In this document: positions 3,547 through 48,991 of the stretch, piece by piece
How positions within the stretch are numbered: the stretch's first letter is position 1
Layout of the letters: each line of letters begins with the position of its first letter
Assembly: GCF_024223415.1 (NCBI RefSeq)
Contig: NZ_CP100500.1
Reading direction: 5' to 3' (one strand)
DNA length: 64,000 nt
DNA from: Escherichia coli
Lineage (GTDB): Bacteria; Pseudomonadota; Gammaproteobacteria; Enterobacterales; Enterobacteriaceae
The notes under the pieces: model-generated
What the model saw: only the letters and a program-made list of their open reading frames with translations
What the model was told of the DNA's origin: nothing
Database searches by the model: none
Position numbers and translations under genes: made by a program

Positions 3547-4311
3547 TTAACGAGGTAAGGCTGGTGGAATGTATCTGCCGATGCGGTCTTCTATGGTCGG
3601 CAGAATGCACATGCTGTCGCTGAAGCGGTCATGCAACTGGTAAACCAGTTTAGAATCCATTTTTTCGAGAGCAGGCATTAACTGCGCCCGCCAGATTTCG
3701 TTGATGCGCCGGAAGTTATGACAGACGGCGCGGAGATTGTTGATGAACATTTCCTTCTCTGCGTCAGTGACTTCTGTCTGTGTTTTCTGAATACGCTTTG
3801 TGCTGCCATTCCGATAGAAGCGTTCCTGAGCAGCAACAGCCTCATCCACGGTTGGATAGCACCCTACGTAAACGCTCTTCTCTCCGTTCCATGCGTAGGC
3901 TCTGTACGGGTTGTATTTGCTCCGGTGATGGTAAACCATCTTCGGCAGACACTCCCTGTGTGGCGCCAGTATCGTGGAGGATTGCTGGTGCAGTTTGCGT
4001 TCGCACTCGATGAAGTATCGGCGGATCTGGCGGCCTTTTTCGTTGCGCTCCACCATCGCCAGTTCTTTGGCCGTGTCGAGGGTGAGGTGGTAGTCCTTAC
4101 AAAGAACATTTTTACGCTTTCCAGTTTTGGAAAACGTTACGATATAATCCTGATTTTCAACGAATTCATAGTCTGCAATTCGTGATGTAATCCACGCTGC
4201 AAACACTTTCCCTACCCCAAGGAATGCGTGCAGATCGCGAGCATTGCAGAGCAGGGTGGTTTCGTTGGCGATAGCGCCGTTGAAAACGGGGATGAGTTGA
4301 GTTGCCATCAC
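3547..4311 (-). CDS. Protein with AntA/AntB-type antirepressor N-terminal domain
   Basis: 254-aa ORF; N-terminal LIPVFNG ... LHAFLGVGKVFAAWITSRIADYEFVENQDY ... YHLTLDTAKELAMVERNEKGRQIRRYF resembles the AntA/AntB antirepressor domain. Confidence 0.55.
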   Translation of the reverse strand: MMATQLIPVFNGAIANETTLLCNARDLHAFLGVGKVFAAWITSRIADYEFVENQDYIVTFSKTGKRKNVLCKDYHLTLDTAKELAMVERNEKGRQIRRYFIECERKLHQQSSTILAPHRECLPKMVYHHRSKYNPYRAYAWNGEKSVYVGCYPTVDEAVAAQERFYRNGSTKRIQKTQTEVTDAEKEMFINNLRAVCHNFRRINEIWRAQLMPALEKMDSKLVYQLHDRFSDSMCILPTIEDRIGRYIPPALPR

Positions 4312-14795: not shown

Positions 14796-15329
14796 ATGAA
14801 CACCAAAATCAAATATGGCCTGTCGGCTGCCGTTCTGGCACTGATTGCCGTCGGTGCGCCTGCGCCTGATATTCTCGACCAGTTTCTGGATGAAAAAGAA
14901 GGTAACCACACAACGGCATACCGCGATGGTTCCGGTATATGGACCATCTGTCGTGGTGCCACAATGGTGGATGGTAAGCCCGTCATACCGGGAATGAAGC
15001 TGTCGAAGGAAAAATGCGTTCAGGTTAATGCCATTGAGCGTGATAGGGCGCTGGCATGGGTGGAGCGCAATATTAAAGTACCTCTGACCGAAGCACAGAA
15101 AGCGGGTATTGCGTCATTCTGTCCCTATAACATTGGCCCCGGTAAGTGTTTCCCGTCGACGTTTTATAAGCGGCTTAATGCCGGTGATCGTAAAGGTGCC
15201 TGTGAGTCGATTCGCTGGTGGATTAAGGACGGTGGGCGTGATTGCCGCACACGTTCAAATAACTGCTACGGACAGGTTATTCGTCGTGACCAGGAAGCAG
15301 CACTTGTGTGCTGGGATATCGACAGATGA
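14796..15329 (+). CDS. R: SAR-endolysin (T4-lysozyme-like muramidase with N-terminal signal-anchor-release domain)
   Basis: N-terminal GLSAAVLALIAVGAPAP SAR-like segment; E...D...T catalytic spacing (DEKEGN, YRDGSG, WTICRG). Confidence 0.8.
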   Translation: MNTKIKYGLSAAVLALIAVGAPAPDILDQFLDEKEGNHTTAYRDGSGIWTICRGATMVDGKPVIPGMKLSKEKCVQVNAIERDRALAWVERNIKVPLTEAQKAGIASFCPYNIGPGKCFPSTFYKRLNAGDRKGACESIRWWIKDGGRDCRTRSNNCYGQVIRRDQEAALVCWDIDR

Positions 15330-15819: not shown

Positions 15820-15884
15820 TGTTACGGCCAGGTTATTCGTCGTGACCAGGAAAGTGCATTAGCCTGTTGGGGGATAGATCAGTG
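15820..15884 (+). pseudogene. Duplicated 3' end of an endolysin gene (remnant coding ...[20 protein letters not shown]), marking an insertion boundary
   Basis: ctgttacggccaggttattcgtcgtgaccaggaa at 15820 nearly repeats ctgctacggacaggttattcgtcgtgaccaggaa at the 3' end of R (about 15268..15301). Confidence 0.6.
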
Positions 15885-16349
15885 AGCAGAGTCGCCGCGA
15901 TTATTTATGCTCTGGTTATCTGCATCATCGTCTGCCTGTCGTGGGCGGTCAATCATTACCGTGATAACGCCATCGCCTACAAAGAACAGCGTGATAAAAA
16001 AGTCAGTGAGCTGAAGCAGGCGACCGCCACCATTACTGACATGCAGCAACGCCAGCGTGCTGCTGATGTACTCGATGCTAAATACACGAAGGAGTTGGCT
16101 GATGCGAAAGCTGAAAATGATGCTCTTCGGCGCAAGCTTGATAATGGTGGTCGGGTGCTCGTCAAAGGAAAATGCTCTGTGCCATCCTCAGCCGAAACCT
16201 CCAGCGCCTCCGGCATGGGCAATGATGCCACCGTCGAACTCTCTCCAGTTGCTGGACGAAACGTTCTCGGTATCCGGGACGGAATCATCAGAGACCAGAC
16301 AGCACTGAGAACGCTTCAGGAATATATCAGGACGCAATGCCTTCGATGA
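15867..16349 (+). CDS. Rz: Rz i-spanin (inner-membrane spanin subunit); true start probably GTG at 15882
   Basis: [33 protein letters not shown] ... closely resembles lambda Rz as recalled. Confidence 0.8.
16102..16308 (+). CDS. Rz1: Rz1 o-spanin lipoprotein embedded in the +1 frame of Rz
   Basis: [21 protein letters not shown] lipobox and proline-rich [11 protein letters not shown] segment inside the Rz gene. Confidence 0.7.
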
Positions 16350-16550
16350 TAGCGATAATTTTACTGATCATCCTTCACATCTGGCTCTGTAGACAGGGTG
16401 GTGATCACTTCTGGAGTGAATCCAGATTAAACATCTCATTGCTGATGCTTGAAGTTGAGCATCTGGCGCGCGGTAAGGGGCTGCGTTGAAATAAGAGCCA
16501 GTCATTAAAAATACCTGGATTTAGCCTCGCATTCGCGGGGCTTTTTATTG

Positions 16551-16774
16551 CCATTACAAAAGCCACTCCCTACAGAGTGGCTTTGATAATGGCTTATACC
16601 CTACACGGGATAACTTAACTGATATCCCTTTTAACGGATAAAGGTATTCAAGCCTGACACATCATGCGCTGTATCGTCGCCGTATTCCCGTATTAACAGA
16701 GACCGTAGCCCGACGGGGAACTCCTTCTGCGAGAGTGTGCGGGAATAATCAAAAACGATGCACACCGGGTTTTT
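16551..16774. repeat. Direct repeat copy 1 (~224 bp) upstream of the two-gene cassette
   Basis: Near-identical to 18338..18560, with only a few mismatches by eye. Confidence 0.8.
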
Positions 16775-16899
16775 ACCGCGCTAATGATTCGCGGGTTTGT
16801 CCCTCATGCTCGCCAGTCCTGTGCGAGGGTGGAAGAAACAGGGCATGTATTCAGGAGCGTGCGACCGTGGTCGCACGGTATCTTTGTCAGGAGGTTTTG

Positions 16900-17760
16900 A
16901 TGAAAGAGTTGCAAAAAATTAATTCAATAATGGAAAGGTTAAGTGCTCTTGAGCGTAAGCTGGACGATTGTGGAAAGCTGTGTGTTGAAAAGCAAAATGA
17001 GCTTTACCGGGAATTTTTTACAATCGTAAGTGAGCTGATGCCAATTGTTAATAACTGCCTGATGACATCCAGATTTTTTAATGTCGATGCTACTACATCC
17101 AGAAAATTTTCTGTGAAAATTCAAGAAAGAGTTTCTGGTAGTGTGACAAGAGAGATGGCTGAACAGTTGGTGGCAATGAGCAATAAAACAAAAAGAAAAA
17201 AGGCATTGCTTGTAACAGCAAATCAGCTTTCAGGGCGCGTTGACTTTCAGGTCAGACAGGGTGGGCGTGTACTGGTAAATGATGCGTTCGTTGGACGTAG
17301 CTTTAGTCCTTACTCGATAAAATATGATGTTGATGCAGATGATCAGGATATCAGCATTTCCTGGAAATCTGAGACAGCAGGGATTGTATTAACAGCAGAG
17401 TTGTTGAGTGATGATAAAAATGATGTCCAGCATCATTTGGACGAAAAGAATCATATTTCTGAAATTTGTATGAAGCCACGCAGCGGAATGACTTTATTGT
17501 CACGCACTCTTGCTGCTGGCTTTTCTGCACCGGAAAAACGTGTGCTTCTGGTAGTGCCTGAAGATGCAGATATTCGACCACTGAATGGCTGTGATGTTAT
17601 TAGTGCAAAAACATTGCATACCCGCGTCATTCCTGTACCGGATGTGGTCATTATTGATGATGTTGAGAAATGCAAGTCTGTTTCCTCAACTGCCACAATC
17701 AAGCGAATTTTACGTTGTAGCACGTCGGCTGTTGTATTCCGGAAGCAGTTACATAACTAA
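16900..17760 (+). CDS. Hypothetical soluble protein (~286 aa), first gene of the repeat-flanked cassette
   Basis: ORF-track frame 16735..17760; preferred start ATG 16900 with AGGAGG RBS; N-terminal coiled-coil-like segment. Confidence 0.5.
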   Translation: MKELQKINSIMERLSALERKLDDCGKLCVEKQNELYREFFTIVSELMPIVNNCLMTSRFFNVDATTSRKFSVKIQERVSGSVTREMAEQLVAMSNKTKRKKALLVTANQLSGRVDFQVRQGGRVLVNDAFVGRSFSPYSIKYDVDADDQDISISWKSETAGIVLTAELLSDDKNDVQHHLDEKNHISEICMKPRSGMTLLSRTLAAGFSAPEKRVLLVVPEDADIRPLNGCDVISAKTLHTRVIPVPDVVIIDDVEKCKSVSSTATIKRILRCSTSAVVFRKQLHN

Positions 17761-17886
17761 CCAGTTTTGTTTTGCAGAACATCCTCAACTAAAAGCTTAT
17801 AGAAAGAGAGCCTGAGATATTTTTTCTGTCTCTCGTAGTTGTTTGTTTTTTTTTTCGAACAGGCTTACAACTTACAGGATATAAAC

Positions 17887-18336
17887 ATGCAAGAAGAAGC
17901 AAATAAAATTCTTGTTGATTTATTGAAGAAGGCCAGCGATGGAATTGATTCCGCCATTGCATTCAGTCAGGCTCAGATTCCGGATGTTGTTCATCAGTTG
18001 CTGGTATGGAATATGGTTGATAGCCTGATTAAAACATTAATAGCCATTTCAACAATCCCTCTGGTTTTCTGGTTTATGAAGAAGCAGTGCCAAAGAGTTG
18101 AGACAGGTAAAATCGGTGATGAAGGATATTCATGGGAGAAGGGAAATCCCAAATACAGGCCGACAATGGTTTGGGATAGCAAAGGTGATATTAATCTTCT
18201 TATCGTGCCATTGGTTGGAGTTTTGACTATGTGGGGGATTTTTATTATTTGTGCAGTAACCAATATGACATGGTTAAAAATCTGGCTGGCACCTAAGTTA
18301 TATCTAATCGAATACGCAGCATCACTAATTAAATAG
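17887..18336 (+). CDS. Small membrane protein (~150 aa, two predicted TM helices), second gene of the repeat-flanked cassette
   Basis: ORF-track frame 17839..18336; start ATG 17887; hydrophobic segments LIKTLIAISTIPLVFWFM and LLIVPLVGVLTMWGIFIICAV. Confidence 0.5.
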   Translation: MQEEANKILVDLLKKASDGIDSAIAFSQAQIPDVVHQLLVWNMVDSLIKTLIAISTIPLVFWFMKKQCQRVETGKIGDEGYSWEKGNPKYRPTMVWDSKGDINLLIVPLVGVLTMWGIFIICAVTNMTWLKIWLAPKLYLIEYAASLIK

Positions 18337-18337
18337 T

Positions 18338-18560
18338 CCATTACAAAAGCCATTCGCTACAGAGTGGCTTTGATAATGGTTTATACCCTGTACGGGATAA
18401 CTTAACTGATATCCCTTTTAACGGATAAAGGTATTCAAGCCTGACACATCATGCGCTGTATCGTCGCCGTATTCCCGTATTAACAGAGACCGTAGCCCGA
18501 CGGGGAACTCCTTCTGCGCGAGTGTGCGGGAATAATCAAAAACGATGCACACCGGGTTTT
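18338..18560. repeat. Direct repeat copy 2 (~223 bp), immediately after the membrane-protein stop codon
   Basis: Near-identical to 16551..16774. Confidence 0.8.
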
Positions 18561-18631
18561 ACTGTGCTGACAGACGCAGGGTTACTCTCATAGTCGCTTT
18601 TCCGGTGCGATGGTGGAAGAAACCGGGATGT

Positions 18632-18826
18632 TTATTCATCATCTATTTGGATTGATGTATATGCTCTCTTTTCTGACGTTAGTCTCCGACGGCAGGCTTC
18701 AATGACCCAGGCTGAGAAATTCCCGGACCCTTTTTGCTCAAGAGCGATGTTAATTTGTTCAATCATTTGGTTAGGAAAGCGGATGTTGCGGGTTGTTGTT
18801 CTGCGGGTTTTGTTCTTCGTTGACAT
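18632..18826 (-). CDS. Small DNA-binding-like protein (possible ribbon-helix-helix fold) with basic N-terminal tail
   Basis: 64-aa ORF MSTKNKTRRTTTRNIRFPNQMIEQINIALEQKGSGNFSAWVIEACRRRL...; fold assignment is inference. Confidence 0.35.
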   Translation of the reverse strand: MSTKNKTRRTTTRNIRFPNQMIEQINIALEQKGSGNFSAWVIEACRRRLTSEKRAYTSIQIDDE

Positions 18827-19014
18827 GAGGTTGCCCCGTATTCAGTGTCGCTGATTTGTATTGTCTGAAGTTGTTTTTACGTTAAGTTGATGCAGATCAA
18901 TTAATACGATACCTGCGTCATAATTTATTATTTGACGTGGTTTGATGGCGTAGATGCACGTTGTGACATGTAGATGATAATTATTATCATTTTGCGGGTC
19001 CTTTCCGGCATGTG

Positions 19015-19060
19015 GACCGTTACGGGGCGTCGACCTCGCGGTTTTTCGCTATTTATGAGA
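19015..19060. other. cos site (cosN with lambda-like cohesive-end sequence, start of cosB)
   Basis: ggggcgtcgacctcgcggtttttcgctatttatga closely resembles the lambda cos sequence GGGCGGCGACCTCGCGGGTTTTCGCTATTTATGA as recalled; located ~200 bp upstream of Nu1. Confidence 0.8.
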
Positions 19061-19252
19061 TTTTTTGAGGGGGTGGTTGTTGTTTAATTGTTTGGTATAT
19101 CTAATTGATAAGTAAGGTGAAAATAAAATAAATACAACAACCTTACGATGTGCTTTGATGTCATTAATGTGAAAAAATTAAATGATATCAAATGGTTTTG
19201 TAAAAACACATGGTTGTTGTATCGCTTTTTATCGATGACTTATGGAGAGGAG

Positions 19253-19759
19253 ATGGCCTTTTTATTGAATAAAAGTGATATGGCCTCCTCCATCGGTATC
19301 TCTGTTCAGGCATTTGATAAATGGGGTGTTCCTCCTGTCGAGCGTCGGGGGAGGGAAGTTTTTTATGACGTTAAAACTGTACTGGAGATAGATCGCGAGC
19401 GGCGACAACACAATCATAGAACACCTGATGACGGGGGCGATCTGGAGGAAAGGCTGCTTCGGGCCAGAGCTGAACTGACAGAAGAACAGGCCGTAGCTCA
19501 AAAACTTAAAAATCAGGTAACCGAAGGTAAGCTCATCGATTCAGACTTCTGCGTTTTCGCCCTCAGCAAGCTGGCGATGGCATTGTCCAGTACGCTTGAT
19601 TCTATTCCGTTATCCATGCAGCGACAGTTCCCGGATTTAACGCCACGTCATCTTGACCATCTGAAAACCCTTATTGCGAAGGGCGCAAATCAGTGTGCGC
19701 GGGCAGGGGATAAATTACCGGATTTGCTGGATGAATATATCAGAGCAACAACTGAATAA
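19253..19759 (+). CDS. nu1: Terminase small subunit (lambda Nu1-like)
   Basis: FCVFALSKLAMALSSTLDSIPLSMQRQFPDLTPRHLDHLK resembles lambda Nu1; start at ATG 19253 (GGAGAGGAG RBS). Confidence 0.8.
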   Translation: MAFLLNKSDMASSIGISVQAFDKWGVPPVERRGREVFYDVKTVLEIDRERRQHNHRTPDDGGDLEERLLRARAELTEEQAVAQKLKNQVTEGKLIDSDFCVFALSKLAMALSSTLDSIPLSMQRQFPDLTPRHLDHLKTLIAKGANQCARAGDKLPDLLDEYIRATTE

Positions 19760-21659
19760 TCTGATGGCTGCCGTTTCGGTTGCGCTGCAGCCTCTGGTCA
19801 GGGTTGTACCGATGACGGCAGTTGAATGGGCTGATCAAAATTATTATCTGCCGAAAGAATCCTCATACGGTGACGGCGAATGGAAAACGCTGCCGTTCCA
19901 GATCGCCATCATGAACAGTATGGGGAATGATCAGGTCCGCACTGTTAATCTGATTAAATCTGCCCGTATTGGTTATACAAAGATGTTGCTGGGGGTGGTC
20001 GGGTATTTTATTGAGCATAAATCCCGAAACAGTCTGCTTTTTCAGCCCACGGATTCTGCCGCTGAAGATTTTATGAAGTCTCACGTGGAGACGACGATTA
20101 GGGACGTGCCATGCCTGAAAGACCTTTCCCCATGGCTGGGTCGTAAACATCGTGATAATACCCTCACGCTGAAACGCTTTTCATCGGGCGTCGGTTTCTG
20201 GTGCCTGGGCGGCGCTGCCGCCAAAAACTACCGTGAAAAATCCGTGGACGTGGTCTGCTATGACGAACTCTCATCGTTTGAACCTGATGTTGAAAAAGAG
20301 GGCTCGCCAACCCTGCTGGGGGATAAGCGTATTGAGGGCTCTGTATGGCCAAAATCCATTCGCGGCTCGACGCCTAAAATCAAAGGCTCCTGCCAGATCG
20401 AAAAAGCCGCTAACGAGTCGGCACATTTCATGCGTTTTTATGTGCCCTGTCCGCACTGTGGGGAGGAGCAGTATCTGAAATTTGGTGATGATGCCTCGGC
20501 TTTCGGTCTTAAGTGGGAGAAGAATAAGCCAGAAAGTGTTTTCTACCTTTGTGAGCATCATGGCTGTGTGATCCATCAGTCTGAGCTTGACCAGAGTAAC
20601 GGGCGGTGGATCTGTGAAAACACGGGGATGTGGACCCGTGACGGTCTGACGTTTTTCAGCGCCCGGGGTGATGAAATTCCGCCGCCGCGCTCCATCACTT
20701 TCCATATCTGGACGGCGTACAGTCCGTTCACCACCTGGGTACAGATAGTCTATGACTGGCTGGATGCACTGAAAGATCCCAACGGCCTGAAAACCTTTGT
20801 GAACACCACGCTGGGCGAGACCTGGGAAGAGGCCGTGGGCGAAAAACTCGATCACCAGGTACTGATGGATAAGGTTGTGCGTTACACGGCGGCGGTGCCT
20901 GCCCGGGTGGTTTATCTGACGGCGGGCATTGACTCGCAGCGAAACCGTTTTGAGATGTATGTCTGGGGATGGGCTCCGGGAGAGGAAGCCTTTCTGGTGG
21001 ATAAAATCATCATTATGGGACGTCCCGATGAGGAAGAGACGCTGTTACGTGTGGATGCGGCGATCAACAAAAAATACTGCCATGCAGACGGAACCGAAAT
21101 GACCATTTCCCGTGTCTGCTGGGACATCGGGGGGATCGATGGCGAAATCGTTTATCAGAGGTCAAAAAAACACGGTGTTTTCCGGGTGCTGCCGGTAAAA
21201 GGCGCATCTGTCTATGGCAAGCCGGTGATCACCATGCCAAAAACCCGCAATCAGCGGGGCGTGTATCTGTGTGAAGTGGGGACGGACACCGCAAAAGAAA
21301 TTCTCTATGCCCGTATGAAAGCCGCTCCCACGCCTGCGGATGAATCCACGTCGTATGCCATCCGTTTTCCTGATGATCCGGAGATTTTTTCGCAGACAGA
21401 GGCGCAGCAACTGGTCGCGGAAGAGCTTGTGGAGAAGTGGGAAAAAGGAAAGATGCGTCTGCTGTGGGATAACAAAAAGCGGCGTAACGAAGCGCTGGAC
21501 TGCCTGGTGTATGCCTACGCGGCATTACGTGTGTCCGTGCAACGCTGGCAGCTTGATCTGGCTGTACTGGCAAAATCCCGGGAAGAAGAGACGACCCGGC
21601 CAACCCTTAAAGAACTGGCAGCGAAGCTGTCCGGAGGAGTGAATGGTTACAGTCGCTGA
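19731..21659 (+). CDS. A: Terminase large subunit (lambda gpA-like)
   Basis: MNISEQQLNNLMAAV ... TAVEWADQNYYLPKES ... closely resembles lambda A; overlaps the Nu1 end. Confidence 0.9.
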   Translation: MNISEQQLNNLMAAVSVALQPLVRVVPMTAVEWADQNYYLPKESSYGDGEWKTLPFQIAIMNSMGNDQVRTVNLIKSARIGYTKMLLGVVGYFIEHKSRNSLLFQPTDSAAEDFMKSHVETTIRDVPCLKDLSPWLGRKHRDNTLTLKRFSSGVGFWCLGGAAAKNYREKSVDVVCYDELSSFEPDVEKEGSPTLLGDKRIEGSVWPKSIRGSTPKIKGSCQIEKAANESAHFMRFYVPCPHCGEEQYLKFGDDASAFGLKWEKNKPESVFYLCEHHGCVIHQSELDQSNGRWICENTGMWTRDGLTFFSARGDEIPPPRSITFHIWTAYSPFTTWVQIVYDWLDALKDPNGLKTFVNTTLGETWEEAVGEKLDHQVLMDKVVRYTAAVPARVVYLTAGIDSQRNRFEMYVWGWAPGEEAFLVDKIIIMGRPDEEETLLRVDAAINKKYCHADGTEMTISRVCWDIGGIDGEIVYQRSKKHGVFRVLPVKGASVYGKPVITMPKTRNQRGVYLCEVGTDTAKEILYARMKAAPTPADESTSYAIRFPDDPEIFSQTEAQQLVAEELVEKWEKGKMRLLWDNKKRRNEALDCLVYAYAALRVSVQRWQLDLAVLAKSREEETTRPTLKELAAKLSGGVNGYSR

Positions 21660-46889: not shown

Positions 46890-48991
<2,102 letters not shown>

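What the first reader, a model, noticed from the sequence alone, without database searches (positions are those of the whole stretch)
18632..18826. Small basic DNA-binding-like protein on the opposite strand between the cassette and cos
This 64-aa ORF has an Arg/Thr-rich N-terminal tail followed by a segment that could form a ribbon-helix-helix-like fold. It is divergent from the late operon and adjacent to the repeat-flanked cassette, so it could be a local regulator or a packaging-associated protein.
Basis: inference. Interest (0 to 1): 0.35.

Follow-up and report, generated by a model that had tools for sequence, protein, structure and literature searches.

The report
YlcI-family small DNA-binding protein beside cos
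The 64-residue reading frame is a real, strongly conserved prophage gene of the known but uncharacterised YlcI/YnfO (DUF3950) family, also present unannotated in phage lambda, and it most likely encodes a ribbon-helix-helix DNA-binding regulator, though what it binds is still unknown.

Summary
The ORF exists exactly as described (window 18632-18826, minus strand, 64 aa). It is a known gene family: Pfam DUF3950 (E 1.7e-20) and NCBIfam YlcI/YnfO. It is 94% identical to E. coli K-12 DLP12 YlcI. YlcI itself is 100% identical to an ORF at lambda 48109-48303(c) that the lambda RefSeq record does not annotate.

The gene codes for protein. It is intact in 87 of 87 related loci, pN/pS is about 0.15, and polymorphic sites by codon position (3rd/1st/2nd) number 33/10/6.

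Its 5' neighbour is always the packaging module, either cos/Nu1 or HNH/TerS. Its 3' neighbour varies: bor, Rha, or this window's cassette. It is therefore not a cassette-specific regulator.

In phage satellites from five genera, homologues are the only opposite-strand gene. They sit at a divergent promoter region that carries clustered palindromes, which is a repressor-like position. Two satellites fuse the domain to a TerS DNA-binding domain.

Verdict: a known family of unknown function, probably a small repressor tied to the packaging module. No operator or promoter was identified. Modest interest.

The parts
18632..18826 (-). ylcI-like CDS, 64 aa (ATG 18826-18824, TAA 18634-18632). Predicted layout: basic N-terminal arm at residues 1-13, strand NIRF at 14-17, helix A at 19-32, turn GSGNFS, helix B from 37, acidic C-tail.
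18834..18837 (-). weak Shine-Dalgarno-like GGGG, 8-11 nt upstream of the ATG. Phage 434 has a ribosome-binding site annotated at the same position.
18338..18631 (-). conserved 3' flank of the gene, probably a 3' UTR. It is the right copy of a ~290-bp direct repeat. The same flank follows DUF3950 in the HK97-type Stx phage locus L009.
18340..18379 (.). hairpin CCATTA..AAAGCCA..TGGCTTT..TAATGG at the far end of the 3' flank. It looks like a terminator for leftward transcription.
   Evidence: (I1/I2)
18827..18995 (.). intergenic segment between the ATG and cosQ. It is almost invariant across 50 haplotypes and between lambda, 434 and the window. The promoter of the gene must lie here but was not identified.
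18974..18990 (.). 17-bp perfect palindrome ATGATAAT-T-ATTATCAT, 6 bp left of cosQ. It overlaps -10-like hexamers on both strands. It is a candidate operator by inference only.
18996..19036 (+). cos core: cosQ GGGTCCT at 18996-19002 and the cosN cohesive-end sequence GGGCGTCGACCT at 19025-19036 (context).
19148..19759 (+). Nu1-type terminase small subunit, given as the maximal ORF with the Phage_Nu1 domain starting at residue 41. It is transcribed divergently from ylcI. The large subunit follows at 19674-21659 (context).
16551..16845 (.). left copy of the ~290-bp repeat (context, not part of the gene unit).
16900..18336 (+). variable two-gene cargo cassette: 16900-17760 (phrog_2571) and 17887-18336 (phrog_3054), both of unknown function (context).

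Best explanation
Window 18632-18826(-) encodes a YlcI/YnfO-family (DUF3950) protein. It is the same gene as ylcI of the E. coli K-12 cryptic prophage DLP12 and as an unannotated ORF at the right end of phage lambda.

The protein most likely folds as a ribbon-helix-helix domain. By analogy with Arc, Mnt and CopG it would dimerise, pair the NIRF strands into a two-stranded ribbon, insert that ribbon into the major groove, and add contacts from the basic N-terminal arm. Asn14 and Arg16 occupy the positions of Arc's base-contacting Asn11 and Arg13.

It is transcribed leftward, antisense to the late transcript, and is made in the prophage state. I infer that it is a small sequence-specific repressor or autoregulator acting in the region it shares with the head of the packaging operon (cos/Nu1 here, HNH/TerS in HK97-type relatives). 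Q-driven late transcription would override it.

What is shown: the gene, its family, purifying selection, synteny, and fold similarity. What is inferred: dimerisation, DNA binding, repressor function, and the target.
For: Family membership and gene reality.

Fold:
- The AlphaFold monomer (pLDDT 70) gives an extended segment at 12-18, helix 19-32 and helix 37-61.
- The Foldseek list is dominated by Arc, NikR, CopG, ParD, MatP and HicB.
- A family profile finds the CopG-family protein 9kkd and CdbA.
- hhalign places NIRFP on Arc/Mnt NLRWP, P 0.0078.
- One family member hits the RHH region of the HicB-like PHROG at E 1.4e-4.

Expression outside lytic growth: ylcI is transcribed in K-12 as a convergent ybcW-ylcI pair (PMC12288877).

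Position: wherever the 5' flank is available (71 loci) it is the packaging module on the opposite strand. The same holds next to HNH/TerS in Stx phages.

Regulator role in the family: in satellites of E. coli, Proteus, Morganella, Serratia and Pasteurella the homologue is the only opposite-strand gene. In the Proteus, Morganella and Serratia loci it is divergent by about 208 bp from the replication operon (145 bp in the E. coli island). Clade-specific palindromes cluster there. GTGTT-NN-AACAC occurs 3 times in 100 bp of L105, a count reached by 0 of 200 shuffles. TGGTACGTACCA occurs twice, flanking a TATAAT, in L005.
Against: - The ribbon is not formed in the monomer model, and a tandem-linked dimer model failed (pLDDT 42).
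- No sigma-70-like promoter scoring 9/12 or better lies upstream on the minus strand.
- No motif is shared between the lambda-type and HK97-type upstream regions, and the satellite palindromes are absent from the window. No operator is therefore known for the phage-type protein.
- It is established knowledge that lambda late genes are transcribed from pR' alone, so a repressible promoter near cos is hypothetical.
- No experimental function exists. ynfO is listed as uncharacterised in the 2024 y-ome survey (PMC11551758).
Confidence: 0.5

Rival explanations
1. Packaging accessory. The protein binds DNA beside cos, for example the 17-bp palindrome 6 bp from cosQ. It either modulates terminase action or shields the chromosomal cos of a resident prophage from terminases of other lambdoid phages. 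The satellite RHH-TerS(HTH) fusions would then be cos-binding decoys.
For: The gene is invariably linked to the packaging module. It lies about 200 bp from cosN. A palindrome sits next to cosQ. Two divergent satellites (44% identical to each other) keep a DUF3950 + TerS N-terminal HTH fusion, and the HTH part is 60-66% identical to helper TerS residues 2-54. E. coli genomes carry a median of 2 and up to 16 copies of this segment.
Against: The gene accompanies two unrelated packaging modules and cos types with no shared flanking motif. In HK97-type phages the HNH gene separates it from cos. It is antisense to late transcription, so it should be poorly expressed when packaging occurs. It is established knowledge that lambda cos function maps to cosQ-cosN-cosB.
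Confidence: 0.2
2. Moron-type lysogenic-conversion regulator. The prophage expresses it to control bor, neighbouring cargo genes or host genes, and its place next to cos only marks the edge of the cargo slot.
For: It is on the opposite strand to the late operon, with its own hairpin at the 3' end. bor lies about 600 bp downstream on the same strand in 53 of 89 loci. ylcI is transcribed in a cryptic K-12 prophage.
Against: The gene persists when bor is absent, as in this window, the Rha-type loci and the Stx phages. No bor-proximal or host operator is known.
Confidence: 0.15
3. RHH-type antitoxin of a toxin-antitoxin pair.
Against: There is no conserved partner gene. The downstream neighbour varies and is often on the other strand. 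The gene is monocistronic here. There is no PADLOC hit.
Confidence: 0.04
4. Not a functional protein. The ORF is conserved only because it lies in the cos-flanking DNA that recombines as a block.
For: The whole segment from the ORF to cosQ is about 98% identical between lambda, 434 and the window.
Against: pN/pS is about 0.15, with 33/10/6 polymorphic sites at codon positions 3/1/2. Homology to HK97-type phages starts at the ATG and has entirely different flanks. Homologues at 40-50% identity exist in other genera.
Confidence: 0.02

Closest known systems
YlcI (DLP12) / YnfO (Qin) of E. coli K-12; Pfam DUF3950 (PF13132), NCBIfam NF041551
   Same: Same family and same genomic place, between the lysis genes and the Nu1 homologue. 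The window protein is 94% identical to YlcI, and its exact sequence is already in NCBI under this name.
   Different: Nothing essential: K6 instead of R6, and a few C-tail residues. The family has no assigned function or fold.
Arc and Mnt repressors of phage P22 (ribbon-helix-helix)
   Same: Similar size and beta-alpha-alpha layout. The strand motif N-[IL]-R-[FW]-P is shared, with Asn and Arg at Arc's base-contacting positions, and there is a flexible N-terminal arm. Both are small phage-encoded regulators.
   Different: No significant sequence similarity (PHROG Arc-like E 0.14). There is no adjacent antirepressor operon; Rha/KilA-N genes are present in only about a quarter of loci and are convergent. 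No TAGA-type operator is conserved.
CopG/ParD/TacA/VapB-type RHH antitoxins and StnY (PDB 9kkd)
   Different: There is no toxin partner gene, and the C-terminal tail is short and acidic rather than a toxin-binding extension.
Stl-type master repressors of staphylococcal SaPI satellites (functional analogue for the satellite homologues)
   Same: In Gram-negative PICI-like islands, DUF3950 is the lone gene transcribed divergently from the main operon, with palindromes in the intergenic region.
   Different: The fold and size are unrelated. Repressor activity was not tested. Gram-negative PICIs are described in the literature as AlpA-activated (PMC6092414, PMC10111431).
Lambda bor-type morons at the right end of lambdoid genomes
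   Same: Opposite strand to the late operon, in the cargo region between Rz and cos, and expressed from prophages.
   Different: ylcI is the constant element at the edge of that region, not variable cargo.

Membership tests
DUF3950 / YlcI-YnfO family | Match to PF13132 and NF041551 above the curated cut-offs | tested here: met
   73 bits vs 25; 37.7 bits vs 30
DUF3950 / YlcI-YnfO family | Conserved core IRFP...E.I...NFSAWV.EAC in a protein of about 60-80 aa | tested here: met
   Alignments A2 and A4: I15, R16, F37 and V41 are invariant; F17, I25, S38, W40, A44 and C45 are at least 90% conserved
DUF3950 / YlcI-YnfO family | Location between the lysis cassette and the packaging module of lambdoid prophages, on the opposite strand | tested here: met
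Ribbon-helix-helix (Arc/MetJ/CopG) superfamily | beta-alpha-alpha topology with a short turn between the helices | tested here: met
   AF2 model: extended 12-18, H19-32, turn GSGN, H37-61. pLDDT is only 70, and the strand is not assigned in the monomer.
Ribbon-helix-helix (Arc/MetJ/CopG) superfamily | Fold similarity to solved RHH structures | tested here: inconclusive
Ribbon-helix-helix (Arc/MetJ/CopG) superfamily | Obligate dimer with an intersubunit antiparallel ribbon | tested here: inconclusive
   The tandem-linked dimer AF2 model failed, pLDDT 42.
Ribbon-helix-helix (Arc/MetJ/CopG) superfamily | Sequence-specific binding to repeated or palindromic operator DNA | not testable with these tools
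   Only candidate sites exist: the palindrome at 18974-18990 in the window, and clustered palindromes next to the satellite homologues.
Type II toxin-antitoxin (RHH antitoxin) | Adjacent co-transcribed toxin gene | tested here: not met
   The downstream neighbour is variable and often on the other strand. There is no PADLOC hit.
P22 immI-type Arc/Mnt module | Co-transcription with, or divergence from, an antirepressor gene under its control | tested here: not met
   Rha/KilA-N are present in 21 of 89 loci, are convergent, and are absent here and in lambda.
Terminase small subunit / cos-binding proteins | Nu1 or Terminase_2 DNA-binding domain | tested here: not met
   The window protein has only DUF3950. 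Terminase_2 is present only in the satellite fusion proteins P0185 and P0244.
Moron (autonomous prophage-expressed unit) | Own promoter and terminator, transcribed against the late operon, expressed in the prophage | tested here: inconclusive
   The opposite strand and a 3' hairpin are present. No promoter scoring 9/12 or better was found. Expression in K-12 is known from the literature only.

The most novel reading that the evidence does not exclude
YlcI-family RHH proteins may be a missing layer of control at the phage-satellite interface.

In Gram-negative PICI-like satellites they would be the switch repressors of the replication and packaging operon, each clade with its own palindromic operators. 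RHH-TerS(HTH) fusions would act as cos/pac-binding decoys.

The copy kept by lambda-like and HK97-like phages at the head of the packaging operon would be a guard. It would silence or insulate terminase expression, or cos recognition, in the lysogen. That would make it a functional gene of phage lambda that standard annotation has overlooked.
Probability: 0.15. Interest if true: 0.65.

Novelty: already known. Interest (0 to 1): 0.33.

Why it matters
The gene itself is not new, since annotation pipelines already call it a YlcI/YnfO family protein. It is, however, one of the commonest prophage genes of E. coli. Its segment is found in 4502 of 5426 complete genomes, often in several copies. It has no known function, and it is missing from the reference annotation and from gene-essentiality screens of phage lambda.

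Assigning it a ribbon-helix-helix fold, a fixed place at the head of the packaging module, and a repressor-like position in satellites turns a y-ome entry into a testable hypothesis. The obvious first experiments are DNA-binding assays and a lambda deletion.

Tried and rejected
- **Dimer model.** A tandem-linked (GGSGG x5) dimer alignment was given to AlphaFold to see the ribbon form. It failed at pLDDT 42.
- **Sequence search of PDB.** The single sequence returned only spurious L16 hits.
- **Rfam.** Nothing relevant on 16000-19400. The 3' flank does not fold better than shuffles, z -0.9.
- **Operator search by shared motifs.** There are no shared 9-mers or 10-mers between lambda-type and HK97-type upstream regions, and shared 8-mers are at chance level.
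- **GTAGATG repeats.** The pair at 18950 and 18970 is not conserved in lambda or in HK97-type phages.
- **Satellite palindromes.** They are absent near the window gene.
- **Promoter search.** No minus-strand site scores 9/12 or better. The 10/12 plus-strand site is not statistically unusual, since 30% of local shuffles contain one.
- **Defence-system models.** No hit for the protein or for either cassette protein.
- **Literature.** No functional study of ylcI, ynfO or DUF3950 was found. Lambda 'orf-64' in the CRISPRi screen is a different gene, lambdap73. Two lambda papers I tried to open by PMC id from memory (a review and a ribosome-profiling study) were not held.
- **Second profile search of the 5.8-billion-protein set.** The 120 best hits listed were all named YlcI/YnfO or DUF3950, or unnamed, with no functionally named distant relatives among them.
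- **Cassette-regulator idea.** Rejected on synteny.
- **Antitoxin idea.** Rejected for lack of a partner gene.

Full report
**Observation**

The sequence is MSTKNKTRRTTTRNIRFPNQMIEQINIALEQKGSGNFSAWVIEACRRRLTSEKRAYTSIQIDDE.

Its surroundings form the right end of a lambda-like prophage:
- lysozyme, 14796-15329
- Rz with embedded Rz1, 15867-16349
- a two-gene cassette, 16900-18336
- the ORF on the opposite strand
- cosQ, 18996-19002
- the cohesive-end sequence GGGCGTCGACCT, 19025-19036
- a Nu1-type small terminase, up to 19759
- the large terminase (19674-21659), W and portal

**Identity**

The protein is a full-length member of a named family:
- Pfam DUF3950, E 1.7e-20, 73 bits against a cut-off of 25
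- NCBIfam YlcI/YnfO
- PHROG 949, function unknown

The 901-bp segment around it occurs in 4502 of 5426 complete E. coli genomes, with a median of two copies and up to 16, and is annotated 'YlcI/YnfO family protein' there. It also occurs in phage 434, where it is labelled a hypothetical protein with DUF3950.

Lambda itself carries an intact 64-aa copy at 48109-48303 on the complementary strand. NC_001416 does not annotate it. That lambda sequence is identical to UniProt YLCI_ECOLI. The window's exact variant is already in NCBI from 9 contigs.

The 'orf-64' of lambda gene lists and of the CRISPRi essentiality screen is lambdap73, between Q and S. It is a different gene, so this one has never been screened.

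**Is it a real gene?**

Among 87 related coding sequences from phages, prophages and viral contigs, the frame is intact in all. Over 18 distinct haplotypes of codons 1-52, polymorphic sites fall 33/10/6 at codon positions 3/1/2, and pN/pS is 0.15. Between lambda-type and Stx-phage copies, pS is 0.45-0.70 and pN/pS is 0.10-0.18.

Homology to HK97-type Stx phages begins at the start codon, with unrelated DNA upstream. Homology to lambda ends at the stop codon. The unit of conservation is therefore the gene, not the cos flank.

Homologues at 40-60% identity occur in Proteus, Morganella, Providencia, Serratia, Rouxiella and Pasteurella.

Apparent occurrences in Staphylococcus, Veillonella and a Campylobacter phage are lambda DNA. 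One such 3.5-kb contig is the right-terminal 3.1 kb of lambda at 97.5% identity. From my own knowledge, this most likely comes from the lambda control amplicon used in nanopore sequencing.

**Fold**

With 23 family sequences, AlphaFold gives an extended segment at 12-18, helix 19-32, a GSGN turn and helix 37-61, with pLDDT 70. Supporting comparisons:
- Foldseek's list is likewise Arc, NikR, CopG, ParD, MatP, MazE9-N and HicB, at E 0.3-2.6.
- A family profile against PDB sequences finds the CopG-family protein 9kkd (E 0.36) and CdbA (E 0.54).
- hhalign puts NIRFP on the NLRWP/NFRMP strand of Arc/Mnt, P 0.0078.
- The Pasteurella homologue hits the RHH region of the HicB-like PHROG at E 1.4e-4.

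Each line is weak, as expected for a 45-residue domain, but they agree. I put the RHH assignment at about 0.85. A tandem-linked dimer model failed at pLDDT 42, so the defining intersubunit ribbon was not modelled.

**Synteny**

In a census of 89 loci, the 5' neighbour is the packaging module on the opposite strand wherever that flank is available (71 loci). In 68 of these it is lambda-type: Nu1 about 720-780 bp away with cos in between in 67, and the large terminase as the only packaging hit in one. In 3 HK97-type Stx-phage loci an HNH endonuclease starts 41 bp away, followed by TerS and TerL.

The 3' neighbour varies:
- bor on the same strand: 53 loci
- Rha or KilA-N on the late strand: 21 loci
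- the window's cassette: 3 loci, including the window
- ybcV/ybcW as in lambda, or Rz directly

The gene is thus the constant right-hand border of the cargo slot and travels with the packaging module. It is not specific to the cassette.

The cassette is bracketed by about 290-bp direct repeats, at 16551-16845 and 18338-18630 (97% over 223 nt). The right copy is simply the gene's own 3' flank, ending in a hairpin at 18340-18379. The same flank follows the gene in an HK97-type phage.

**Homologues in satellites**

In PICI-like islands the DUF3950 gene is the only gene on the opposite strand. The island layout is integrase, AlpA, often AntA/Bro, then small genes, primase, and capsid or TerS. This holds in E. 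coli, Proteus, Morganella, Serratia and Pasteurella.

In the Proteus, Morganella and Serratia loci, the gene starts 208 bp from the head of the replication operon and is divergent from it. That intergenic region carries clustered palindromes that differ by protein clade:
- GTGTT-NN-AACAC, three copies within 100 bp in Serratia. These are the only matches in the 10-kb locus, and 0 of 200 shuffles reach that count.
- TGGTACGTACCA, twice, flanking a perfect TATAAT just upstream of the E. coli island's 60-aa gene.

This is the layout of an autoregulated switch repressor.

Two islands also encode a DUF3950 domain fused to the N-terminal DNA-binding HTH of a small terminase (120 and 129 aa, 44% identical to each other). 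The HTH part is 60-66% identical to helper TerS residues 2-54. One of these islands sits inside the helper prophage's terS gene, the 'helper-embedded PICI' arrangement described in PMC10111431.

**Mechanism**

Shown: a conserved protein-coding gene, its family, selection, synteny, fold similarity, and transcription of ylcI in K-12 as a convergent ybcW-ylcI pair (PMC12288877).

Inferred: an Arc-like dimer that reads DNA with the ribbon, with N14 and R16 at Arc's N11 and R13 positions, plus the basic arm. It would act as a small repressor or autoregulator made in the prophage state, and Q-modified late transcription running antisense through it would override it.

I could not find its target:
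- No minus-strand promoter scores 9/12 or better.
- No motif is shared between lambda-type and HK97-type upstream regions.
- The satellite palindromes are absent from the window.

The best candidate in lambda-type phages is the 17-bp palindrome ATGATAAT-T-ATTATCAT at 18974-18990. It lies 6 bp from cosQ, is kept as TGATAAT-C-ATTATCA in lambda, and carries -10-like hexamers on both strands. This is inference only.

**Rivals**

- A cos or packaging accessory: favoured by the linkage and the TerS fusions; disfavoured by the two unrelated cos types and the antisense orientation.
- A moron-type regulator of bor or host genes.
- An antitoxin: no partner gene.
- A non-coding artefact: excluded.

**Comparison and novelty**

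The gene is a member of YlcI/YnfO (DUF3950), which has no assigned function. ynfO is listed as uncharacterised in the 2024 y-ome survey, and no functional paper was found. In how it works, it most resembles P22 Arc/Mnt and CopG-type RHH regulators. It is not a demonstrated member of any curated RHH family at sequence level.

The finding is therefore already known as a gene. What this work adds is the fold assignment, the strict association with packaging modules, the absence from lambda's reference annotation, and the repressor-like position and operators of satellite homologues. Interest is modest (0.33). The more novel reading, a phage/satellite regulatory family guarding the packaging operon, is possible but unproven (about 0.15).

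Noticed in passing
L003 2710-2904 (lambda NC_001416 48109-48303, complement): Phage lambda's reference record has no feature here, yet the ORF is intact and 100% identical to UniProt YLCI_ECOLI. The 'orf-64' in lambda gene lists and in the CRISPRi screen is lambdap73, a different gene.
   Followed up: yes
window 16551-16845 and 18338-18630: Direct repeats of about 290 bp (97% over 223 nt) bracket a 1.5-kb two-gene cassette. The right copy is the 3' flank of ylcI, and the same flank follows DUF3950 in an HK97-type Stx phage (L009 3340-3620). This looks like cargo exchange by homologous recombination in a conserved flank.
   Followed up: partly
window 16900-17760 and 17887-18336 (+): The cassette proteins (286 and 149 aa after start correction) belong to phrog_2571 and phrog_3054, both of unknown function. 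They have no Pfam or PADLOC match. The same pair occurs in E. coli TUM1886 (L002) and in the viral contig L045.
   Followed up: partly
It belongs to the cassette, not to ylcI.
   Followed up: partly
window 18418-18552 (-) and 16631-16765 (-): A 44-aa GTG-start ORF lies inside both repeat copies. It is deposited as a 'hypothetical protein' (mislabelled as arginyl-tRNA synthetase in some records). Whether it is coding was not tested.
   Followed up: no
L108 (3555-bp contig in a Staphylococcus aureus assembly); many 3.4-3.6 kb ENA contigs among the hits: L108 is the right-terminal 3.1 kb of lambda at 97.5% identity, most likely sequencing control DNA; the ENA contigs of the same size were not checked but probably are the same. 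Records of this kind create false non-enterobacterial hosts and many frameshifted 'proteins' for DUF3950.
   Followed up: partly
L005 6001-6363 and L004 4714-5103: Satellite proteins fuse DUF3950 to the N-terminal HTH of a small terminase (Terminase_2 positions 1-53). The two are only 44% identical to each other, so the fusion has been maintained. The HTH part is closer to the helper phage TerS than to the island's own TerS.
   Followed up: partly
L005 8696-8881 and 90-7876: A PICI-like island is integrated inside the terS gene of an HK97-type lambdoid prophage. The remaining 61-aa fragment is 98% identical to the N-terminus of the Stx2a_WGPS8 TerS. This matches published helper-embedded PICIs.
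   Followed up: partly
L105 4840-4936; L005 5545-5589; L098-L107 4792-5001: Clade-specific palindromes cluster in the divergent region next to satellite DUF3950 genes: GTGTT-NN-AACAC three times, and TGGTACGTACCA twice around a TATAAT.
   Followed up: partly
L097 3541-4215 (-) vs 3959-4138 (+) (Pasteurella phage Pmp7): The annotated 224-aa 'transcriptional repressor' is a low-complexity ORF on the wrong strand. The conserved gene at this position is a 59-aa DUF3950 protein on the other strand.
   Followed up: partly
window 18963-18990 (+): A promoter-like site, GTGACA-16-TATCAT (10 of 12), points into cos and Nu1 and overlaps the 17-bp palindrome. There are only five such sites in the 64-kb window, but 30% of local shuffles contain one.
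   Followed up: partly
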